From a virus (lineage: Duplodnaviria > Caudoviricetes): a stretch of 59,735 nucleotides of DNA. Both the position numbers and the translations under genes were made by a program. The notes beneath the pieces were generated by a model. It was not told the DNA's origin. It worked only from the letters and a program-made list of their open reading frames with translations, and searched no databases. Position 1 is the first letter of the stretch. Each line of letters opens with the position of its first letter. The stretch lies in the IMG/VR virus record IMGVR_UViG_3300008012_000002, positions 1 through 59,735 of that record. One strand, written 5' to 3'. Below, piece after piece: positions 15,998-57,469 of the stretch.

Positions 15998-16906
15998 ATG
16001 AGTACTGCAAACGAGCTAAGCGGAATCGCCGTAGCAAACATCTCTGAAGTGAGCGGAGTTGCCAACAACGCAATCTCTGAGGTGAGCGGTATTGCTTTAA
16101 CTCAGGCCGCCAACCTATCCATTACTTGGAATTTTGACGACCAAACTGTTGCTACAAGTACTTCAGCTACTAATGCTGGTTGGGTTCCCTCTCTTACTCA
16201 TTCATCATGGGTTAATGGGGGTGCAGCAGTGGACAATCTTAACGGATACTGGAGCGGCGACCCAGGAACTCCAGCAACGAGTACAAACCCATCTCCTGGA
16301 AAGGTTAGTTATGGATGGCGGTGCGATAGCAATGCCACAAGCTCAGCGAGTACAGGCCCTCTTGGGGCGCTTAACGCAGCTCTAAATGGAACCCACGATA
16401 CTGGAACCTCCACTAAGTATATCTTTTCAGAGACCAGTGGGACGCTCGGGACAAATCTGAATGTATGTAGGACTCCAGGCTTTACGCCTAGAACCGATAT
16501 GACAGACTTTGCCAACAACGACTTGAAGCTAAAGTTTTGGCTTCACGCTTTTGGAGATTCTATTGATTATCTTAGAGTGTATGTAGATGACGCTCAATCT
16601 TCAAATACTTCAAACGCACTTGAGTATGTGAAGTTTATTGGATCTTATTCTGGAACTAGTGCGGGTACAGGAACTTCGACAATGACAGCGTCTGCTGCAA
16701 ACCACACGCAAGTTTCACCAACAACACTCACTTACTCAAATGGCCTTTCCTCTCTCTGGATACAGGTTGAGATATCTTTGAACAATCTTAGAGGCCTTAA
16801 CGTGCCTCAGTACATTTACTTTGTCGCCGCAGCAAAACCTGGAATTGCCAATCAAAGATTCAGAGGTGACATTGCTATTGACCACGTACAAATCATAGAA
16901 GAGTAA
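15998..16906 (+). CDS. Putative receptor-binding/tail protein with a MAM-like domain
   Basis: TGP...HDTG, Y...ETS, FWLHAFG...LRVY, W..VEISL and GDIAID match MAM-domain landmarks. Confidence 0.65.
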   Translation: MSTANELSGIAVANISEVSGVANNAISEVSGIALTQAANLSITWNFDDQTVATSTSATNAGWVPSLTHSSWVNGGAAVDNLNGYWSGDPGTPATSTNPSPGKVSYGWRCDSNATSSASTGPLGALNAALNGTHDTGTSTKYIFSETSGTLGTNLNVCRTPGFTPRTDMTDFANNDLKLKFWLHAFGDSIDYLRVYVDDAQSSNTSNALEYVKFIGSYSGTSAGTGTSTMTASAANHTQVSPTTLTYSNGLSSLWIQVEISLNNLRGLNVPQYIYFVAAAKPGIANQRFRGDIAIDHVQIIEE

Positions 16907-53257: not shown

Positions 53258-53846
53258 AGCTGTCAGAGTTTTTGGGTTTAGGAATGCGGAAAGCGTGCAT
53301 CGAGAAGTCGTCGACGTCGATGAAAGCGTGGTTGCGGTAGTACACATCCGAAATGAACTCACCGAGTTGTGCAAGGTTGTGCAAGCCCTCGTCTTTCCAG
53401 TTCTCGTTGGTACCGCCTACCACATCGGATGAGACACGAGCCACAAGTGACATACACAAGGGGTGGTAATCCCATGCTTGGTCGGCTTCGATTTGATTCC
53501 ACGTCAACCAACATGACTCGGTGGAGTCGGAGCGGTTAGACAGGTCAACCTCGATGATGCGGAATACCTCGACACTTACGTCGTCCATGAACTCCGCAAC
53601 GTAGTCGTCGTGCTCCATGTCAGAGGGGACGCAAGCGTGGTAGTTCTCGTAGTCACGAGTGAGGGTGACGTAGATGTCAAGCTCTCGGTGTTCGATGTTG
53701 ACGCACATCTCATCCTTGCGGTATTCGTCAAGAATCTGACTGACGTGCTTGTCTGCAAGCCCCCTGTCGGGGAAGAACTCGCAGGTGGTGTCGGAGTACC
53801 CTTCGAAGAGTCCTGCGACAGCGTGGATTACTGCATATTGTTTCAT
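53244..53846 (-). CDS. Hypothetical early protein
   Basis: 200-aa acidic ORF with an A/C-rich leader. Confidence 0.7.
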   Translation of the reverse strand: MKQYAVIHAVAGLFEGYSDTTCEFFPDRGLADKHVSQILDEYRKDEMCVNIEHRELDIYVTLTRDYENYHACVPSDMEHDDYVAEFMDDVSVEVFRIIEVDLSNRSDSTESCWLTWNQIEADQAWDYHPLCMSLVARVSSDVVGGTNENWKDEGLHNLAQLGEFISDVYYRNHAFIDVDDFSMHAFRIPKPKNSDSYDEV

Positions 53847-53875: not shown

Positions 53876-53933
53876 GTGTTCGTGTATATCACCTTCTTCG
53901 TAAACTCAGAAGGTGTATATACACTCACACATA
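53876..53933 (-). repeat. Conserved hairpin element, copy 1 (core CCTTCT-GAGTTTACGA-AGAAGG)
   Basis: Three near-identical intergenic copies with a long inverted repeat. Confidence 0.85.
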
Positions 53934-53935
53934 AG

Positions 53936-54064
53936 TAGCGGAAGGTGGAGTCGAACCACCGCACATCTCATGTTCGTTGCCATAAGCCCTCGGTAAAGGG
54001 TAGAAGGAACAGATATTGATATGCACACACCACCTCACGACCTCTCGTGATAAGTGTCTCCGCT
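53936..54064 (-). ncRNA. tRNA-like RNA 1 (129 nt; expanded D- and anticodon-arm regions)
   Basis: Acceptor AGCGGAG/TTCCGCT+A, T arm GGTGG-TTCGACT-CCACC, long internal stems. Confidence 0.7.
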
Positions 54065-54143: not shown

Positions 54144-54208
54144 GAAGGGAGGTTGGGATTCGAACACAACTGCCATCCGTAGATGTACGCACCGAACTGC
54201 GCTCCCTT
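54144..54208 (-). ncRNA. tRNA-like RNA 2 (65 nt; anticodon loop replaced by a UACG tetraloop)
   Basis: AAGGGAG/CTCCCTT, CGCA/TGCG, CATC-TACG-GATG, T loop TTCGAAT. Confidence 0.75.
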
Positions 54209-54250
54209 GAAAAAGGTGGGGGTGGCGTGACGTTTCACGTCTCACCCCCG
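54209..54250 (-). terminator. Terminator-like hairpin upstream of tRNA-like RNA 2
   Basis: GGGGGTG...CACCCCC followed by TTTTT on the - strand. Confidence 0.55.
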
Positions 54251-55122: not shown

Positions 55123-55323
55123 TCATTTTCTTTTTGTTGTTTCGATTCCCCACCATTCTACTTCTTCATCGTGGATGCGGAAGCTGTGTGTTTCTTGCAG
55201 GGCGTCATTCCATACCTCGTCCAACCACACGCCGTGGTCGTCAGGTGCTCCCTGCACATAGGAAGCAGGGAAGCCTTGTTCTTGCAGTGCTTTGACTGCA
55301 CGTTCGCATTTGTCTTGTGTCAT
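55123..55323 (-). CDS. Hypothetical early protein
   Basis: 66-aa ORF. Confidence 0.6.
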   Translation of the reverse strand: MTQDKCERAVKALQEQGFPASYVQGAPDDHGVWLDEVWNDALQETHSFRIHDEEVEWWGIETTKRK

Positions 55324-55499
55324 TTGCTCAAGTTGAATGCAGTTTTACGAACAGCCTCGACCTTCTTCAAGGTCCACCCAGGAGGTGTCATCATCCGTGC
55401 TTGGATGAGTGCTGATGTGCTGTCATTGGATGCGAACTCGCGGTCTCGCCAATCGTCTCGGTCTTTGCCGAAGTAGTATACCATGCGGTAAATGTTCAT
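55320..55499 (-). CDS. Small early protein (59 aa; not in the track), paralogue of 56076..56309
   Basis: MNIYRMVYYFGKDRDDW; preceded by the shared leader. Confidence 0.65.
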   Translation of the reverse strand: MNIYRMVYYFGKDRDDWRDREFASNDSTSALIQARMMTPPGWTLKKVEAVRKTAFNLSK

Positions 55500-55537
55500 G
55501 TGAATGAAGTTTGAAATTTGAAAGATTTTGCAAGTTT

Positions 55538-55608
55538 TAGATGTGGCGGGATTCGAACCCGCACCTCCACCTTTCAGTGGCGTGCTATCCTGTTACACTA
55601 TCACACCT
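55538..55608 (-). ncRNA. tRNA-like RNA 3 (71 nt; anticodon arm shortened to CCACT-GAAA-GGTGG)
   Basis: AGGTGTG/CACATCT+A, D arm GTGT/GCAC, T arm GCGGG-TTCGAAT-CCCGC. Confidence 0.75.
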
Positions 55609-55642
55609 TGCGGGCTATGCCCCTCAAAGCTACGTTCGCTTT

Positions 55643-55692
55643 GACACAGACGCCTCTCGGCGTTTCGTCCATTGAGGACTCATCAGTGTGTC
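55643..55692 (-). ncRNA. Type I hammerhead ribozyme 1
   Basis: GACACA-CTGATGA-GTCC-TCAAT-GGAC-GAAA-CGCC-GAGA-GGCG-TC^TGTGTC; complete catalytic core with a GUC cleavage triplet. Confidence 0.92.
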
Positions 55693-55698
55693 TCTTTA

Positions 55699-55757
55699 GT
55701 GTTCGTGTATACTACCTTCTTCGTAAACTCAGAAGGTATGTATACACTCACACATAG
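55699..55757 (-). repeat. Conserved hairpin element, copy 2
   Basis: Same core as copy 1; immediately 5' of hammerhead 1. Confidence 0.85.
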
Positions 55758-55979
55758 TCAGTCGTCAGTCGACCACCGCTTCAGCATTCGCATCACATGG
55801 AACACCGTCGTAGCGTCAGCGTCAGGTGTGTTTGCCACGATTGATGCCATGCCCTTGACGTCATCAGGGATGAGCCGAGCGTAGCGGTTCAGGTCAGACA
55901 GGTACTTCCCGTTGTGGAAGTCGTTGAGGTAGAGGACGGCACGTCCTACGGGTTGGGAGAAAAAGTTGTCCTTAATCAT
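55758..55979 (-). CDS. Hypothetical early protein
   Basis: 73-aa ORF. Confidence 0.6.
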   Translation of the reverse strand: MIKDNFFSQPVGRAVLYLNDFHNGKYLSDLNRYARLIPDDVKGMASIVANTPDADATTVFHVMRMLKRWSTDD

Positions 55980-56076
55980 TGTTCAAGGCTTTGATGATGA
56001 TGCAGAGAATTGAAGCACCGACTAGCATCATGGCGAGCATGAGCGGGGTGCATGAGATGATGAACTCGGGTGTCAT
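55972..56076 (-). CDS. 34-aa single-TM peptide (not in the track)
   Basis: MTPEFIISCTPLMLAMMLVGASILCIIIKALNND; coupled to both neighbours. Confidence 0.5.
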   Translation of the reverse strand: MTPEFIISCTPLMLAMMLVGASILCIIIKALNND

Positions 56077-56309
56077 TACTTGTTGAGTTGGAAGTGGGCT
56101 TTCACGGACTTGACACAATGCCCATCAGGGCAGAGGTCAAGCGCTCGTTGCTTCGCATGGTCGAGAGACCACGCCTTGAACACGATGGCGTCCCAATCGT
56201 CGCGGTCGTAGCCACGATAGTACACCATCCTGAACTCCATTGAGGGGCAGGATTTCGGGAGCCAATCGCTCATCGTGCCCCGCTTGGGGTAGCGTTCCCA
56301 AATGTTCAT
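56076..56309 (-). CDS. Small early protein, paralogue of 55320..55499
   Basis: MNI...FRMVYYRGYDRDDW. Confidence 0.65.
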   Translation of the reverse strand: MNIWERYPKRGTMSDWLPKSCPSMEFRMVYYRGYDRDDWDAIVFKAWSLDHAKQRALDLCPDGHCVKSVKAHFQLNK

Positions 56310-56467
56310 GACAAGTCGACGATTTCTTGTGCGACCATCATCTGCTCGTTACATGACAGGCTTGCGAACTCCTCGGAGTTGAAGTAGGCGTCAGCCCCGA
56401 ACACTTGGTACATATCGACCATAGCTTGCAATTTGGCGATTCTCGCCTCAACATTTGTAGTTTTCAT
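56306..56467 (-). CDS. Small early protein (53 aa; not in the track)
   Basis: MKTTNVEARIAKLQAM...; first ORF after the hammerhead 2 cleavage site. Confidence 0.6.
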   Translation of the reverse strand: MKTTNVEARIAKLQAMVDMYQVFGADAYFNSEEFASLSCNEQMMVAQEIVDLS

Positions 56468-56487
56468 TGGAAATGAATTTGAAGTTT

Positions 56488-56539
56488 GATACAGACACCC
56501 CGAAGGGTGTTTCGTCCATTGAGGACTCGTCAGTGTACC
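56488..56539 (-). ncRNA. Type I hammerhead ribozyme 2
   Basis: GGTACA-CTGACGA-GTCC-TCAAT-GGAC-GAAA-CACCC-TTCG-GGGTG-TC^TGTATC; stems I and III covary with hammerhead 1. Confidence 0.92.
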
Positions 56540-56546
56540 TGTGATG

Positions 56547-56750
56547 TCAGTATGGGGGCTTGTCAGGTTTGGGTGAGAGAGCAGACTCCATGGCCTTGGA
56601 CAGGAGGTACTCCTCGAGTTCTTCGTCGAGGTGGTGCTTGAGGATGTAATCCTCGGCTTCGGGGTCGCTACCTAACACCCTGTAGACGTCTACACTTGTC
56701 ATGTAGCCTGATTGGATGACGCAATCGATGATGTCTGAAACGTTTGACAT
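56547..56750 (-). CDS. Hypothetical early protein
   Basis: 67-aa ORF with the shared leader. Confidence 0.65.
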   Translation of the reverse strand: MSNVSDIIDCVIQSGYMTSVDVYRVLGSDPEAEDYILKHHLDEELEEYLLSKAMESALSPKPDKPPY

Positions 56751-56781
56751 GGCTTGAAGTTTGAATTTCGAGTTAGAGAGA

Positions 56782-56831
56782 GGGGTCGTATATCACCTTC
56801 TTCGTAAACTCAGAAGGTGTATATACTCCCC
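56782..56831 (-). repeat. Conserved hairpin element, copy 3
   Basis: Same core; basal stem swapped to GGGG/CCCC (covariation). Confidence 0.85.
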
Positions 56832-56841
56832 CACTCATGGA

Positions 56842-57396
56842 TTAGCAGGTTGGGTCGAACGGCAAGTCAGAGAAGCAAACTTCGTTTGCCGTGGGTGTCA
56901 CATCTGACGTCATCATGACGGCCAAGGTAGCGGTCAACTGCTCCAACTTGGCTTCCAAGGAAGCTACGCGGTCATCTGACGTCACCTTCATGGGTGCGGC
57001 CTTCGGCATGGCGACAGCCTTCTTGACTGCCCCTGCCTTCCGCTTGGCTCTTGCCGTAGCTCCTGACTTGTCAGACACCTCTTGGGCTGACTTCCGAGCC
57101 TCCTCAACGGAGGCCGTACGCTTGGTGTGACATGGCGTCACCACGCCATCGGCTTTGCCGTGGAAAGCCTTTTCCTGCCTGTCAGCTACTTTGGTAGCTG
57201 GTGTGGCTTTGCCATTCTTCTGCTTCGTCTTACGACGACGCTTTGGCTTCGGAGCCTCAAGGCTCTCAACGTATGACATGAGGGAAGCAACAGCCTTCTT
57301 CGCATCTTCGATGCGGTCTGCGGTTGGTGAGAACGAAGCAGTATTGACTGCTGTCTTAACCTCCTTCAGGAGGTTGATTCTAGATTGATTGTTCAT
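56842..57396 (-). CDS. First early gene; basic Lys/Ala-rich protein
   Basis: Start MNNQSR after the early promoter and the CAAACTTCA leader. Confidence 0.7.
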   Translation of the reverse strand: MNNQSRINLLKEVKTAVNTASFSPTADRIEDAKKAVASLMSYVESLEAPKPKRRRKTKQKNGKATPATKVADRQEKAFHGKADGVVTPCHTKRTASVEEARKSAQEVSDKSGATARAKRKAGAVKKAVAMPKAAPMKVTSDDRVASLEAKLEQLTATLAVMMTSDVTPTANEVCFSDLPFDPTC

Positions 57397-57437
57397 CGTA
57401 GATGAAGTTTGAAGTTTGGTTGGCAACATCGCCGAGG

Positions 57438-57469
57438 CAAATCTACGGCGGCACTTTCCTTCTCACAAA
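57438..57469 (-). promoter_or_regulatory. Early promoter, Bacteroidota housekeeping sigma type (-33 TTTG, 20 nt, -7 TAGATTTG)
   Basis: Full match to TTTG-N19-21-TAnnTTTG, pointing into the early arm. Confidence 0.8.

What the first reader, a model, noticed from the sequence alone, without database searches (positions are those of the whole stretch)
55643..56539. Two covarying type I hammerhead ribozymes that could excise an 845-nt, potentially circularisable RNA
Seen: both ribozymes have CUGANGA, GAAA, a GUC cleavage triplet and an identical stem-loop II (GUCC-UCAAU-GGAC). Stems I and III differ in sequence but keep pairing (CGCC-GAGA-GGCG vs CACCC-UUCG-GGGUG), which indicates selection on structure. 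Predicted cuts are at 56494/56493 and 55649/55648. Known: cleavage leaves 5'-OH and 2',3'-cyclic phosphate ends, which are RtcB substrates. Inference: the released 845-nt fragment, carrying four small ORFs and a hairpin copy, could be a stabilised 5'-OH mRNA or a retrozyme-like circular mRNA.
Basis: partly seen in the sequence, partly recalled or inferred. Interest (0 to 1): 0.85.

Follow-up and report, generated by a model that had tools for sequence, protein, structure and literature searches.

The report
Two hammerhead ribozymes punctuating phage operon
Two genuine self-cutting hammerhead RNA motifs sit between small early genes of an uncultured freshwater phage and most likely chop one long message into shorter ones, a layout known in phages since 2011; nothing supports a circular RNA product.

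Summary
Two complete type I hammerheads lie on the minus strand at 56540-56487 and 55693-55642, with predicted cuts at 56494/56493 and 55649/55648, 845 nt apart. They score below Rfam's gathering cut-off (22.8 and 24.9 vs 34 bits). They belong to a covarying family in other viral contigs: across 30 distinct copies, 99.6% of cells are paired and 12 of 15 pairs show compensatory changes.

The window is a complete 59.7-kb phage genome, probably of a Bacteroidota host. All 5 related phages examined carry 2-3 same-strand hammerheads in the homologous early region, bounding 1-4 small genes. In this family the upstream stop codon usually touches the ribozyme, and the next ATG usually lies 20-36 nt after the cut.

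The best reading is intercistronic processing of a long early transcript, as described for clustered phage hammerheads (PMC3088659). The circular, retrozyme-like idea is unsupported. There are no flanking repeats and no phage RtcB. The fragment ends would rebuild stem I with a mismatch, and such cross-pairing is perfect in only 3 of 22 adjacent pairs. No RNA data were decisive. This scan has noted phage hammerhead arrays many times on other DNA. It is a new member of a known kind.

The parts
56487..56540 (-). Hammerhead 1 (type I). Stem I is GGUACA/UGUAUC, the core is CUGACGA...GAAA, stem-loop II is GUCC-UCAAU-GGAC and stem III is CACCC-UUCG-GGGUG. The predicted cut follows C56494.
   Evidence: RF00163, 22.8 bits; R1, 76.4 bits; the MFE fold is the hammerhead junction. 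Its position between the 67-aa and 53-aa gene homologues was seen in G001, G002 and G003. G004 and G005 carry matching hits with the same spacing.
55642..55693 (-). Hammerhead 2 (type I). Stem I is GACACA/UGUGUC, the core is CUGAUGA...GAAA, stem-loop II is identical to HH1 and stem III is CGCC-GAGA-GGCG. The predicted cut follows C55649.
   Evidence: RF00163, 24.9 bits; R1, 74.0 bits.
55649..56493 (-). The 845-nt RNA segment between the two predicted cuts. It would carry a 5'-OH leader, four cistrons, a stable hairpin and the folded body of HH2 ending in a 2',3'-cyclic phosphate.
   Evidence: The end chemistry follows from established hammerhead chemistry and is not shown here.
56547..56750 (-). 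Upstream 67-aa ORF. Its stop codon lies 6 nt before HH1.
   Evidence: Homologues precede HH1 in relatives. No Pfam or PHROG match.
56306..56467 (-). 53-aa ORF, the first cistron after HH1. Its ATG lies 26 nt after the cut.
   Evidence: Conserved in L024, L025 and L026.
56076..56309 (-). 77-aa ORF, overlapping its neighbours by ATGA and TAATG. It has a paralogue at 55320-55499.
   Evidence: (family D5).
55972..56076 (-). 34-aa hydrophobic ORF, read from the ATG at 56076.
   Evidence: The hydrophobic character is read from the sequence. No family match.
55758..55979 (-). 73-aa ORF, the last cistron of the segment.
55707..55779 (-). Copy 2 of a three-copy long hairpin repeat, with loop GAGUUUACG. 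It lies between the 73-aa ORF and HH2. The other copies are at 53884-53956 and 56788-56860.
   Evidence: family D1; z -3.7 to -5.7. Two compensatory changes between copies 1 and 2 were read from the sequences.
56480..56487 (-). Leader motif AAACUUCA directly after HH1. The same motif precedes the ATGs at 57429, 56750, 55499 and 53846.
   Evidence: 11 matches against 3.5 expected, and 0 of 100 shuffles reached 11. Six of the 11 lie on the minus strand between 53858 and 57417.
55538..55608 (-). tRNA-shaped RNA with a 4-6-nt loop where the anticodon loop should be. It starts 40 nt after the HH2 cut and lies before the next leader and the ATG at 55499.
   Evidence: RF00005, 38.8 bits; ARAGORN reports an undetermined two-base 'anticodon'.
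57438..57445 (-). Candidate Bacteroidota-type -7 promoter box TAGATTTG, with TTTG 20 nt upstream. It is the likely start of the early transcript that contains both ribozymes.
   Evidence: The motif is only weakly enriched overall: 38 matches against 28.2 expected, and 4 of 100 shuffles reached 38. No terminator-like site lies on the minus strand between 57700 and 53528. This is an inference.

Best explanation
Both elements are functional type I hammerhead self-cleaving ribozymes. They sit in the sense strand of the early, small-gene operon of a Bacteroidota-type podophage.

A long host-polymerase transcript, probably starting near 57435, runs leftwards. As it folds, each ribozyme cuts itself. 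HH1 cuts just after the 67-aa gene. HH2 cuts after a four-gene block and its hairpin.

Cleavage splits the polycistronic RNA into sub-operon messages. Each downstream piece starts with a 5'-OH. After HH1 this is a short, unstructured leader without a Shine-Dalgarno sequence (UGUAUC-AAACUUCA...), 26 nt before the ATG. Each upstream piece ends in the compact ribozyme fold with a 2',3'-cyclic phosphate. At HH2 a very stable hairpin also precedes that end.

This uncouples the stability and translation of neighbouring gene blocks. HH2 additionally frees the 5' side of an anticodon-less tRNA-like RNA that host tRNA-processing enzymes probably trim.

Shown here: motif integrity, fold, family covariation, conserved intercistronic placement, and same-strand pairs in all relatives examined. 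Inferred: actual cleavage, the transcript's extent, and the effects on stability and translation.
For: - Core and topology are intact.
- Family covariation is strong in all three stems. 12 of 15 pairs carry compensatory changes across 30 distinct copies. The never-varying pairs (15-31, 35-88 and 36-87 of A2) lie next to the core.
- 5 of 5 related phage records have 2-3 hits on one strand, 200-590 nt apart, in the homologous region. HH1's slot is the same in the three relatives whose sequence was read, while the second ribozyme sits after 1, 2 or 4 genes.
- In 29 distinct family members, an ORF of at least 45 codons ends between 21 nt inside and 6 nt before the ribozyme in 26 of 29. An ATG-started ORF of at least 30 codons begins 20-36 nt after the cut in 17 of 29.
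- Other phage loci carry 3-4 strong hits each, all on one strand.
- The same leader motif follows HH1, the hairpin repeats, the tRNA-like RNA and the candidate promoter.
- No terminator-like site interrupts the minus strand here.
- Literature: clustered hammerheads flanking genes in prophages cleave during in vitro transcription, and processing of long phage transcripts was proposed (PMC3088659, passages). In haloviruses HF1 and HF2, a 5' end mapped by primer extension lies within 3 nt of a hammerhead cut site 13 nt upstream of a start codon (same passages).
- Bacteroidetes ribosomes do not use the Shine-Dalgarno sequence (PMC7797042, abstract in the search listing).
Against: - There is no RNA-level evidence for this phage. 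The four metatranscriptome runs gave only short contigs, most of them unlike the window in part, and contigs cannot show RNA ends.
- Both ribozymes score below Rfam's gathering threshold.
- Stem I is only 6 bp, and I identified no definite stem I/loop II tertiary contact. Cleavage at cellular Mg2+ could therefore be slow.
- HH2 is atypical for the family. It lies 64 nt after the stop codon and 149 nt before the next ATG.
- The closest TerL relative in the phage collection (MW202828.1) has no hit. Flavobacterium phage elemoF has one weak hit of 34.9 bits with a poorly paired stem II. The ribozymes are therefore dispensable in this phage group.
- The transcript start is inferred from a motif that is only weakly enriched.
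Confidence: 0.72

Rival explanations
1. Retrozyme- or viroid-like circular RNA. After double cleavage, the 845-nt fragment's 5'-OH and 2',3'-cyclic phosphate ends are joined into a circular, translatable mRNA. The joining would be done by host RtcB or by the reverse hammerhead reaction.
For: - The end chemistry of hammerhead products suits RtcB (established knowledge). RtcB circularises retrozyme monomers in vitro (PMC7229834, passages).
- RtcB is found in 10 of 14 control genomes, including Bacteroides thetaiotaomicron.
- The fragment's 5' end could pair with the HH2 5' strand in 5 of 6 positions.
- In the MFE fold of the fragment, the 5' end pairs near the 3' end.
- In 3 of 22 adjacent pairs the cross-pairing is perfect.
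Against: - There are no direct repeats beyond the 46-nt ribozyme core.
- The fragment is coding and its gene content varies from 1 to 4 genes among relatives.
- 19 of 22 adjacent pairs have at least one mismatch in the chimeric stem I, whereas self stems are 6/6 in 34 of 34. There is thus no selection for end-joining geometry.
- The phage has no RtcB.
- No 'goes back' joint appeared in the RNA contigs, but they barely cover this phage, so this is not evidence.
- Perreault et al. looked for circular or spliced products of clustered phage hammerheads and detected none (PMC3088659, passages).
Confidence: 0.05
2. HH2 exists mainly to mature the downstream tRNA-like RNA. It sets a defined 40-nt, 5'-OH leader for RNase P, and processing of the protein-coding message is secondary.
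For: - The tRNA-like RNA starts 40 nt after the HH2 cut.
- HH2 is the family outlier in its distance to the neighbouring ORFs.
- An RNA-library contig from a relative keeps the 48 nt that span the HH2 cut and run to the first bases of the tRNA-like RNA, while both flanks differ (record 3).
Against: - None of the 13 other hammerhead-bearing loci scanned has a tRNA call, so the pairing is not a family trait.
- RNase P needs no pre-cut leader (established knowledge).
- A weak TAnnTTTG box at 55625-55632 could give the tRNA-like RNA its own start.
Confidence: 0.2
3. The ribozymes are chiefly boundary elements of mobile gene cassettes. Conserved ribozyme-plus-leader sequences serve as recombination points where related phages swap small early genes, and RNA cleavage is incidental.
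For: - The genes between ribozymes differ among relatives, while the ribozyme and leader stay.
- Contigs from a relative in one RNA library skip 55521-55759, and replace 56442-56753 with 36 other letters (table 5). The first of these joints has only 22 letters on one side.
- Stem I sequences of neighbouring copies are near-identical.
Against: Strict maintenance of the catalytic core and compensatory changes in all three stems point to selection on RNA structure, not on DNA homology. The two roles are not exclusive.
Confidence: 0.12
4. Chance matches to a short degenerate motif, with no function.
For: The Rfam scores are below gathering. A loose core pattern has a third, apparently spurious match in the window.
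Against: - Both matches are full-length, and the canonical structure is the MFE fold.
- The model separates them by about 58 bits from the next hit.
- Relatives conserve the ribozymes, with covariation.
Confidence: 0.01

Closest known systems
Clustered hammerhead ribozymes flanking single genes or short gene blocks in prophages and phages (Perreault et al. 2011, PMC3088659; passages read)
   Same: Several same-strand hammerheads lie in intergenic gaps of a phage operon and bound variable small genes. The proposed role, cutting a long transcript into shorter messages, is the same. The circular or spliced alternative was already considered there.
   Different: - The three arrangements named in those passages were tested in vitro. 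Here nothing was assayed.
- Here both ribozymes are type I, with a 6-bp open stem I and a U-rich pentaloop II.
- They sit in a probable Bacteroidota phage with leaders that lack a Shine-Dalgarno sequence.
- They alternate with a repeated hairpin and tRNA-like RNAs in the same architectural slot.
- I could not check whether this subfamily is in that paper's supplementary alignments, because supplements are closed.
Rfam Hammerhead_1 (RF00163, clan CL00010)
   Same: The core, type I topology and helix arrangement match. Both copies align full-length to the model.
   Different: They score 24.9 and 22.8 bits against a gathering score of 34, because stem III is longer than in the model and stem I differs. 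Rfam-threshold annotation therefore misses them.
Metazoan non-LTR and plant LTR retrozymes, which give circular RNAs through hammerheads plus RtcB or tRNA ligase (de la Pena et al. 2020, PMC7229834; passages read)
   Same: Two hammerheads bound an RNA segment of a few hundred nt. The products have RtcB-compatible ends. The metazoan elements use type I hammerheads.
   Different: Retrozymes are non-coding tandem or LTR repeats, so each monomer rebuilds one whole ribozyme, and they are highly self-paired. Here the segment is unique coding DNA, the two ribozymes differ in stems I and III, and no circular form is seen.
Halovirus HF1/HF2 'HHphage' hammerhead, 13 nt upstream of a helicase start codon (as described in PMC3088659)
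   Same: The ribozyme is placed a short, fixed distance upstream of the first start codon of an early polycistronic message, so cleavage defines the mRNA 5' end.
   Different: HHphage is a core-variant, salt-dependent ribozyme in an archaeal virus. Here the core is canonical and the host is probably bacterial.

Membership tests
Hammerhead ribozyme, type I (RF00163) | Conserved catalytic core: CUGANGA, GAAA, the A15.1-U16.1 pair, and a non-G residue at the cleavage site | tested here: met
   Both copies carry CUGA(C/U)GA, GAAA, the A-U pair and GUC. This holds in all 30 distinct family members, with C or A at the cleavage site.
Hammerhead ribozyme, type I (RF00163) | Three helices around the core, supported by covariation | tested here: met
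   99.6% of 447 cells are paired and 12 of 15 pairs have changes on both sides. Slid controls pair 27-39%. In the MAFFT alignment A1, 100% of 150 cells are paired and 6 of 15 pairs change on both sides.
Hammerhead ribozyme, type I (RF00163) | Type I topology: stem I open, stems II and III capped by loops | tested here: met
   The MFE folds show this topology, as does the Rfam alignment.
Hammerhead ribozyme, type I (RF00163) | Score at or above Rfam's gathering threshold (34 bits) | tested here: not met
   The scores are 24.9 and 22.8 bits, and neither appears in the gathering-threshold scan. This is a curatorial cut-off and not a structural feature.
Hammerhead ribozyme, type I (RF00163) | Site-specific self-cleavage that leaves 2',3'-cyclic phosphate and 5'-OH ends | not testable with these tools
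   This needs an in vitro transcription or cleavage assay. The RNA contigs cannot show ends.
Hammerhead ribozyme, type I (RF00163) | Tertiary contact between stem I and loop II, which gives fast cleavage at low Mg2+ | tested here: inconclusive
   No stem I bulge or pseudoknot was found. All 25 copies with a U-rich loop II have A...A flanking stem I. All 5 copies with a GNRA-like loop II lack a 3' flanking A, and 4 of them also lack the 5' one. This hints at a contact, but the copies are related to one another.
Clustered phage or prophage hammerheads (Perreault 2011) | Two or more hammerheads on the coding strand that flank one or a few genes of a phage operon | tested here: met
   The window has 2 hammerheads bounding 4 ORFs. 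5 of 5 relatives have 2-3. Other loci have 3-4 strong hits each. Intercistronic placement is quantified.
Retrozyme or viroid-like circular RNA | Ribozymes embedded in direct repeats, so the excised monomer rebuilds one complete ribozyme | tested here: not met
   Only the 46-nt core repeats, at 80% identity (family D6). The chimeric stem I pairs 5 of 6 positions with a C.A mismatch, and only 3 of 22 adjacent pairs in the family are perfect.
Retrozyme or viroid-like circular RNA | Non-coding, highly self-paired monomer | tested here: not met
   The segment holds four tightly packed ORFs, and the 53-aa and 77-aa ORFs have homologues in relatives. The fold has z -4.14 on 20 shuffles. The MFE structure is a multi-branched fold that includes the terminal hairpin and the ribozyme body. 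I did not test how much these contribute to the z-score.
Retrozyme or viroid-like circular RNA | Detectable circular junction | not testable with these tools
   Only Logan contigs of four RNA runs with small shares were available, and no back-joint was listed. This is uninformative.
RAGATH-1 hammerhead (RF03152) | Extra upstream hairpin plus hammerhead, scoring at least 56.3 bits | tested here: not met
   The scores are 26.0 and 21.6 bits, and the upstream hairpin is poorly aligned.

The most novel reading that the evidence does not exclude
The pair of ribozymes releases a four-gene 845-nt RNA whose 5'-OH and 2',3'-cyclic phosphate ends are sealed by the host's RtcB. This would give the phage an exonuclease-proof circular mRNA early in infection.

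A milder novel reading: hammerheads, anticodon-less tRNA mimics and a conserved long hairpin are interchangeable 'punctuation marks'. Each would be placed before the same leader, which lacks a Shine-Dalgarno sequence, so that every sub-operon gets a 5'-proximal start codon in a host that does not use that sequence. I put this reading at about 0.3.
Probability: 0.05. Interest if true: 0.8.

Novelty: new member of a known kind. Interest (0 to 1): 0.3.

Why it matters
It adds a clean, covariation-backed subfamily of type I hammerheads that standard Rfam thresholds miss. It places them in a complete genome of a probable Bacteroidota phage, where they share one architectural slot with a repeated hairpin and tRNA-like RNAs, all followed by a common leader without a Shine-Dalgarno sequence.

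This makes a practical question testable: does ribozyme cleavage set mRNA 5' ends to aid translation or stability in hosts that ignore the Shine-Dalgarno sequence? A cultured relative with a weak hammerhead hit, Flavobacterium phage elemoF, exists for such a test.

It does not reveal a new mechanism. Clustered phage hammerheads have been described since 2011, and this scan has met them repeatedly.

Tried and rejected
- Rfam at gathering threshold found only the two tRNA-type hits and no ribozyme.
- blastn of 55400-56900 against 50,697 phage records gave no match.
- Exact-pattern scans of viral contigs gave 0 loci each for the 31-nt spacer after HH2 and for the tRNA-like anticodon/T-arm region.
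- ARAGORN found no tRNA in 13 other hammerhead-bearing loci. I therefore dropped the idea that hammerhead-tRNA pairing is a family trait.
- Pfam and PHROGs gave nothing for the seven small ORFs around the ribozymes, apart from one marginal PHROG hit (E 0.005) for the 195-aa protein.
- The sigma-70 promoter and terminator scan found no more sites than expected from shuffles.
- Sequencing runs: 24 runs held some of the stretch, and the best were freshwater DNA metagenomes. The four RNA runs (shares 0.04-0.09) gave only short contigs, 13 laid in all, most only partly alike and largely from relatives. No part without cover, no contig end and no missing joint is evidence for or against cleavage or circles. 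Two joints in one run suggest relatives that lack the HH2/tRNA-like block or the 67-aa gene plus HH1. One of them has only 22 letters on one side, and the contigs were laid at a likeness threshold of 85.
- The RAGATH-1 hammerhead was considered and rejected on score.
- An N4-like hairpin-promoter idea for the three-copy hairpin was considered. I did not pursue it, because the 3090-aa protein gave only one weak PHROG hit of unknown function.
- Literature searches found no paper on hammerheads in Flavobacterium, Cellulophaga or Bacteroidetes phages or on circular RNAs from phage hammerhead pairs. For one search I saw the 7 papers listed. For one search I saw 15 of 222, none of which holds 'hammerhead'. 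For one search I saw 12 of 154. Only the listings were seen, and subscription journals are not covered.
- Supplements of PMC3088659 are closed. They may already hold this subfamily.
Full report
WHAT IS THERE

The window is a complete virus record of 59,735 bp with direct terminal repeats. Its terminase, portal and structural genes lie on the plus strand. A replication and small-gene block lies on the minus strand from about 57.4 kb leftwards.

The large terminase is closest to an uncultured podovirus (47.7% identity). Next come 68 Flavobacterium phage records (40.1% in the rows listed) and Cellulophaga phages. All 117 matching records are below 60% identity. The runs holding half or more of the stretch's sampled words are labelled freshwater metagenomes. 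A Bacteroidota host is therefore likely but not shown.

- HH1 (56540-56487): stem I GGUACA/UGUAUC, core CUGACGA, stem-loop II GUCC-UCAAU-GGAC, GAAA, stem III CACCC-UUCG-GGGUG, GUC.
- HH2 (55693-55642): stem I GACACA/UGUGUC, core CUGAUGA, the same stem-loop II, stem III CGCC-GAGA-GGCG, GUC.

The predicted cuts, after C56494 and C55649, are 845 nt apart.

IS IT MORE THAN CHANCE?

Rfam at its gathering thresholds reports only two tRNA-type matches. With the E-value threshold, RF00163 aligns both copies end to end at 24.9 and 22.8 bits, against a gathering score of 34. The genome-level search gives E 2.5e-5 and 1.2e-4. For both, the canonical three-way junction is the minimum-free-energy fold.

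An exact scan for the shared 25-nt core found 19 loci on 17 viral contigs. Ten distinct copies aligned by MAFFT are 100% paired over 150 cells. Six of 15 pairs change on both sides, and 0 of 500 shuffles reach the covariation score.

A covariance model built from them (R1) scores the window's two copies 76.4 and 74.0 bits. The next best hit in the whole window, with filters off, is 16.1 bits.

Across 30 distinct copies gathered with the model, 99.6% of 447 cells pair. Twelve of 15 pairs show compensatory changes, and slid controls pair only 27-39%. This alignment is fitted to the model and leans towards the structure. The three pairs that never vary lie next to the catalytic core. From my own knowledge of hammerheads, these correspond to the pairs usually numbered G10.1-C11.1, A15.1-U16.1 and C15.2-G16.2.

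CONTEXT IN THE WINDOW

HH1 begins 6 nt after the stop of a 67-aa ORF, and its cut lies 26 nt before the ATG of a 53-aa ORF.

The 845-nt segment holds four tightly packed ORFs of 53, 77, 34 and 73 aa, whose start and stop codons overlap. After them comes copy 2 of a three-copy, very stable hairpin (z -3.7 to -5.7), and then the body of HH2.

After the HH2 cut come two small hairpins. They are followed by a tRNA-shaped RNA whose anticodon loop is reduced to 4-6 nt (RF00005, 38.8 bits; ARAGORN cannot name an anticodon). Then comes a leader and the ATG at 55499.

The motif AAACUUCA occurs 11 times in the window against 3.5 expected, and 0 of 100 shuffles reach 11. Six of the 11 lie on the minus strand between 53858 and 57417. 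They sit just upstream of the ATGs at 57429 (two copies), 56750, 56467, 55499 and 53846. In other words, the same leader follows the candidate promoter, hairpin copy 3, HH1, the tRNA-like RNA and hairpin copy 1.

A Bacteroidota-type box, TAGATTTG, with TTTG 20 nt upstream, lies at 57445-57438. No terminator-like site lies on the minus strand from 57700 to 53528. I infer one long early transcript that is punctuated by different RNA elements. The promoter motif is only weakly enriched overall: 38 against 28.2 expected, with 4 of 100 shuffles reaching 38.

RELATIVES

All five related virus records reached through the core scan have 2-3 model hits on one strand in the homologous region. I read the sequence of three of them.
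- HH1's slot, after the 67-aa gene homologue, is kept in G001, G002 and G003.
- The second ribozyme lies after one gene in G001, giving a 201-nt segment. It lies after two genes in G002 (370 nt) and G003 (591 nt).
- G004 and G005 show the same hit spacing as G002 and G003 respectively.
- In G002 and G003 the stop codon of the upstream gene is the UGA of the ribozyme's CUGAUGA.

Other, more distant phage loci carry three or four strong hits (at least 34 bits) each, all on one strand.

Over 29 distinct ribozymes, an ORF of at least 45 codons ends between 21 nt inside and 6 nt before the ribozyme in 26 of 29. An ATG-started ORF of at least 30 codons begins 20-36 nt after the cut in 17 of 29. At least two of the misses look like GTG starts or a wrong-frame ATG picked by my simple rule. 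HH2 of the window is one of the three outliers on the upstream side.

The closest terminase relative in the phage collection has no hit. Flavobacterium phage elemoF has one weak hit (34.9 bits) in an intergenic gap that carries a small opposite-strand ORF annotation.

HOW IT MOST LIKELY WORKS

The layout is the one Perreault et al. described in 2011. Multiple hammerheads flank single genes or short gene blocks in prophages. They cleaved during in vitro transcription in three tested cases, and the proposed role is to process long phage transcripts (PMC3088659, passages). The same passages note a halovirus hammerhead 13 nt upstream of a start codon, with the transcript's mapped 5' end within 3 nt of the cut.

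I therefore read HH1 and HH2 as intercistronic processing sites. The downstream product starts with a 5'-OH and, after HH1, a short unstructured leader. The upstream product ends in a folded ribozyme with a cyclic phosphate, and at HH2 a strong hairpin precedes that end. This would let the phage set the stability and translation of each sub-operon separately.

Bacteroidetes ribosomes do not recognise the Shine-Dalgarno sequence (PMC7797042, abstract only). A shared A/U-rich leader brought close to a new 5' end is therefore a plausible reason for this design, but that step is inference.

HH2 may in addition free the tRNA-like RNA for host tRNA-processing enzymes. I confirmed only that the element exists and lacks an anticodon loop.

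THE CIRCULAR-RNA IDEA

Retrozymes and viroid-like RNAs carry their hammerheads in repeats, so that each monomer rebuilds one whole ribozyme. They are non-coding and highly self-paired, and RtcB or a tRNA ligase seals them (PMC7229834, passages). Here the evidence runs against that model.
- Only the 46-nt core repeats, at 80% identity.
- The segment is coding, and its gene content varies among relatives.
- The phage has no RtcB.
- The stem I that the two ends would form pairs 5 of 6 positions, with a C.A mismatch.
- Across 12 loci, the ribozymes' own stem I is 6/6 in 34 of 34. The cross-pairing of adjacent ribozymes is 6/6 in 3 of 22, 5/6 in 16 and 4/6 in 3. Some of these loci come from near-identical phages, and the weak insertion-bearing hammerhead of L025 was left out. 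Neighbouring copies thus tend to differ by one compensated pair, which is the opposite of what self-ligation would select.

The MFE fold of the fragment does bring its 5' end near its 3' end. This pairing involves the ribozyme core and not stem I, so I give it little weight.

Perreault et al. considered circular or spliced products and detected none. A host RtcB could still join some molecules. I put that at about 5%.

RNA DATA

Their short contigs came largely from relatives. They cannot show ends and are not used as evidence.

COMPARISON AND NOVELTY

The elements meet every structural criterion of type I hammerheads that I could test. They fail only Rfam's score cut-off, and catalysis is untested. 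They fit the known class of clustered phage hammerheads. They fail the defining features of retrozymes and of the RAGATH-1 variant.

Earlier notes of this scan list many phage hammerhead arrays on other DNA: 173 notes hold the search words, in at least 153 genomes. The finding is thus a new member of a known kind.

Some local features are of modest interest:
- an Rfam-invisible subfamily with an open 6-bp stem I;
- a loop II/flank correlation (25 of 25 against 5 of 5);
- a probable Bacteroidota host context;
- the sharing of one slot with hairpins and tRNA mimics.

Interest: 0.3.

Noticed in passing
window 53938-54064 (-): A 127-nt tRNA-shaped RNA candidate. It has a 7-bp acceptor-like stem (AGCGGAG/UUCCGCU), a T-arm with loop UUCGACU, and two long inner arms. 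MFE is -50 kcal/mol, z -3.39. It has no Rfam hit and no ARAGORN call. It sits just upstream of hairpin copy 1 and the leader of the ATG at 53846.
   Followed up: partly
window 53884-53956, 55707-55779, 56788-56860 (-): A three-copy long hairpin with the conserved loop GAGUUUACG. Copies 1 and 2 differ by two compensatory stem changes. Copies 1 and 2 are followed by ACGAACACU. Copies 1 and 3 are then followed directly by the AAACUUCA leader and an ATG, while HH2 and the tRNA-like RNA intervene after copy 2. It may be a processing or stabilising element used in the same slot as the hammerheads.
   Followed up: partly
L025 1554-1707 (same in L023; virus records G003 and G005): A second hammerhead directly abuts the first. 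It has a canonical core and stems I and II, but about 125 nt are inserted in stem III. The model scores it only 21.4 bits. It could be a discontinuous or regulated ribozyme.
   Followed up: no
L024 1131-1181 (-) and L025 2095-2145 (+): The stop codon of the upstream gene is the UGA inside the ribozyme's CUGAUGA core, so coding sequence and catalytic core overlap.
   Followed up: partly
Alignment A2 (30 distinct hammerheads from the window and 11 loci): All 25 copies with a U-rich loop II (UNAAU-like) have an A on both sides of the 6-bp stem I and a G-C closing pair. All 5 copies with a GNRA-like loop II have U instead of A on the 3' side, and 4 of them also lack the 5' A. This may mark a stem I-end/loop II tertiary contact, but the copies are not independent.
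   Followed up: no
window 55625-55632 (-): A TAGCTTTG box (Bacteroidota -7-like) lies inside the small hairpin between the HH2 cut and the tRNA-like RNA. It could give that RNA its own start, but no TTTG lies about 20 nt upstream.
   Followed up: no
NC_055853.1 16030-16137 (L039 1531-1638): In Flavobacterium phage elemoF, the only opposite-strand ORF annotated in a run of small minus-strand genes ('gp66', 35 aa) overlaps the candidate hammerhead at 16044-16103. It is probably a spurious gene call.
   Followed up: partly
window 54144-54215 (-): A second anticodon-less tRNA-like sequence is visible in the early region. It has a T-loop-like UUCGAAU and an acceptor-like GGGAG.../...CUCCC pairing.
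   Followed up: no
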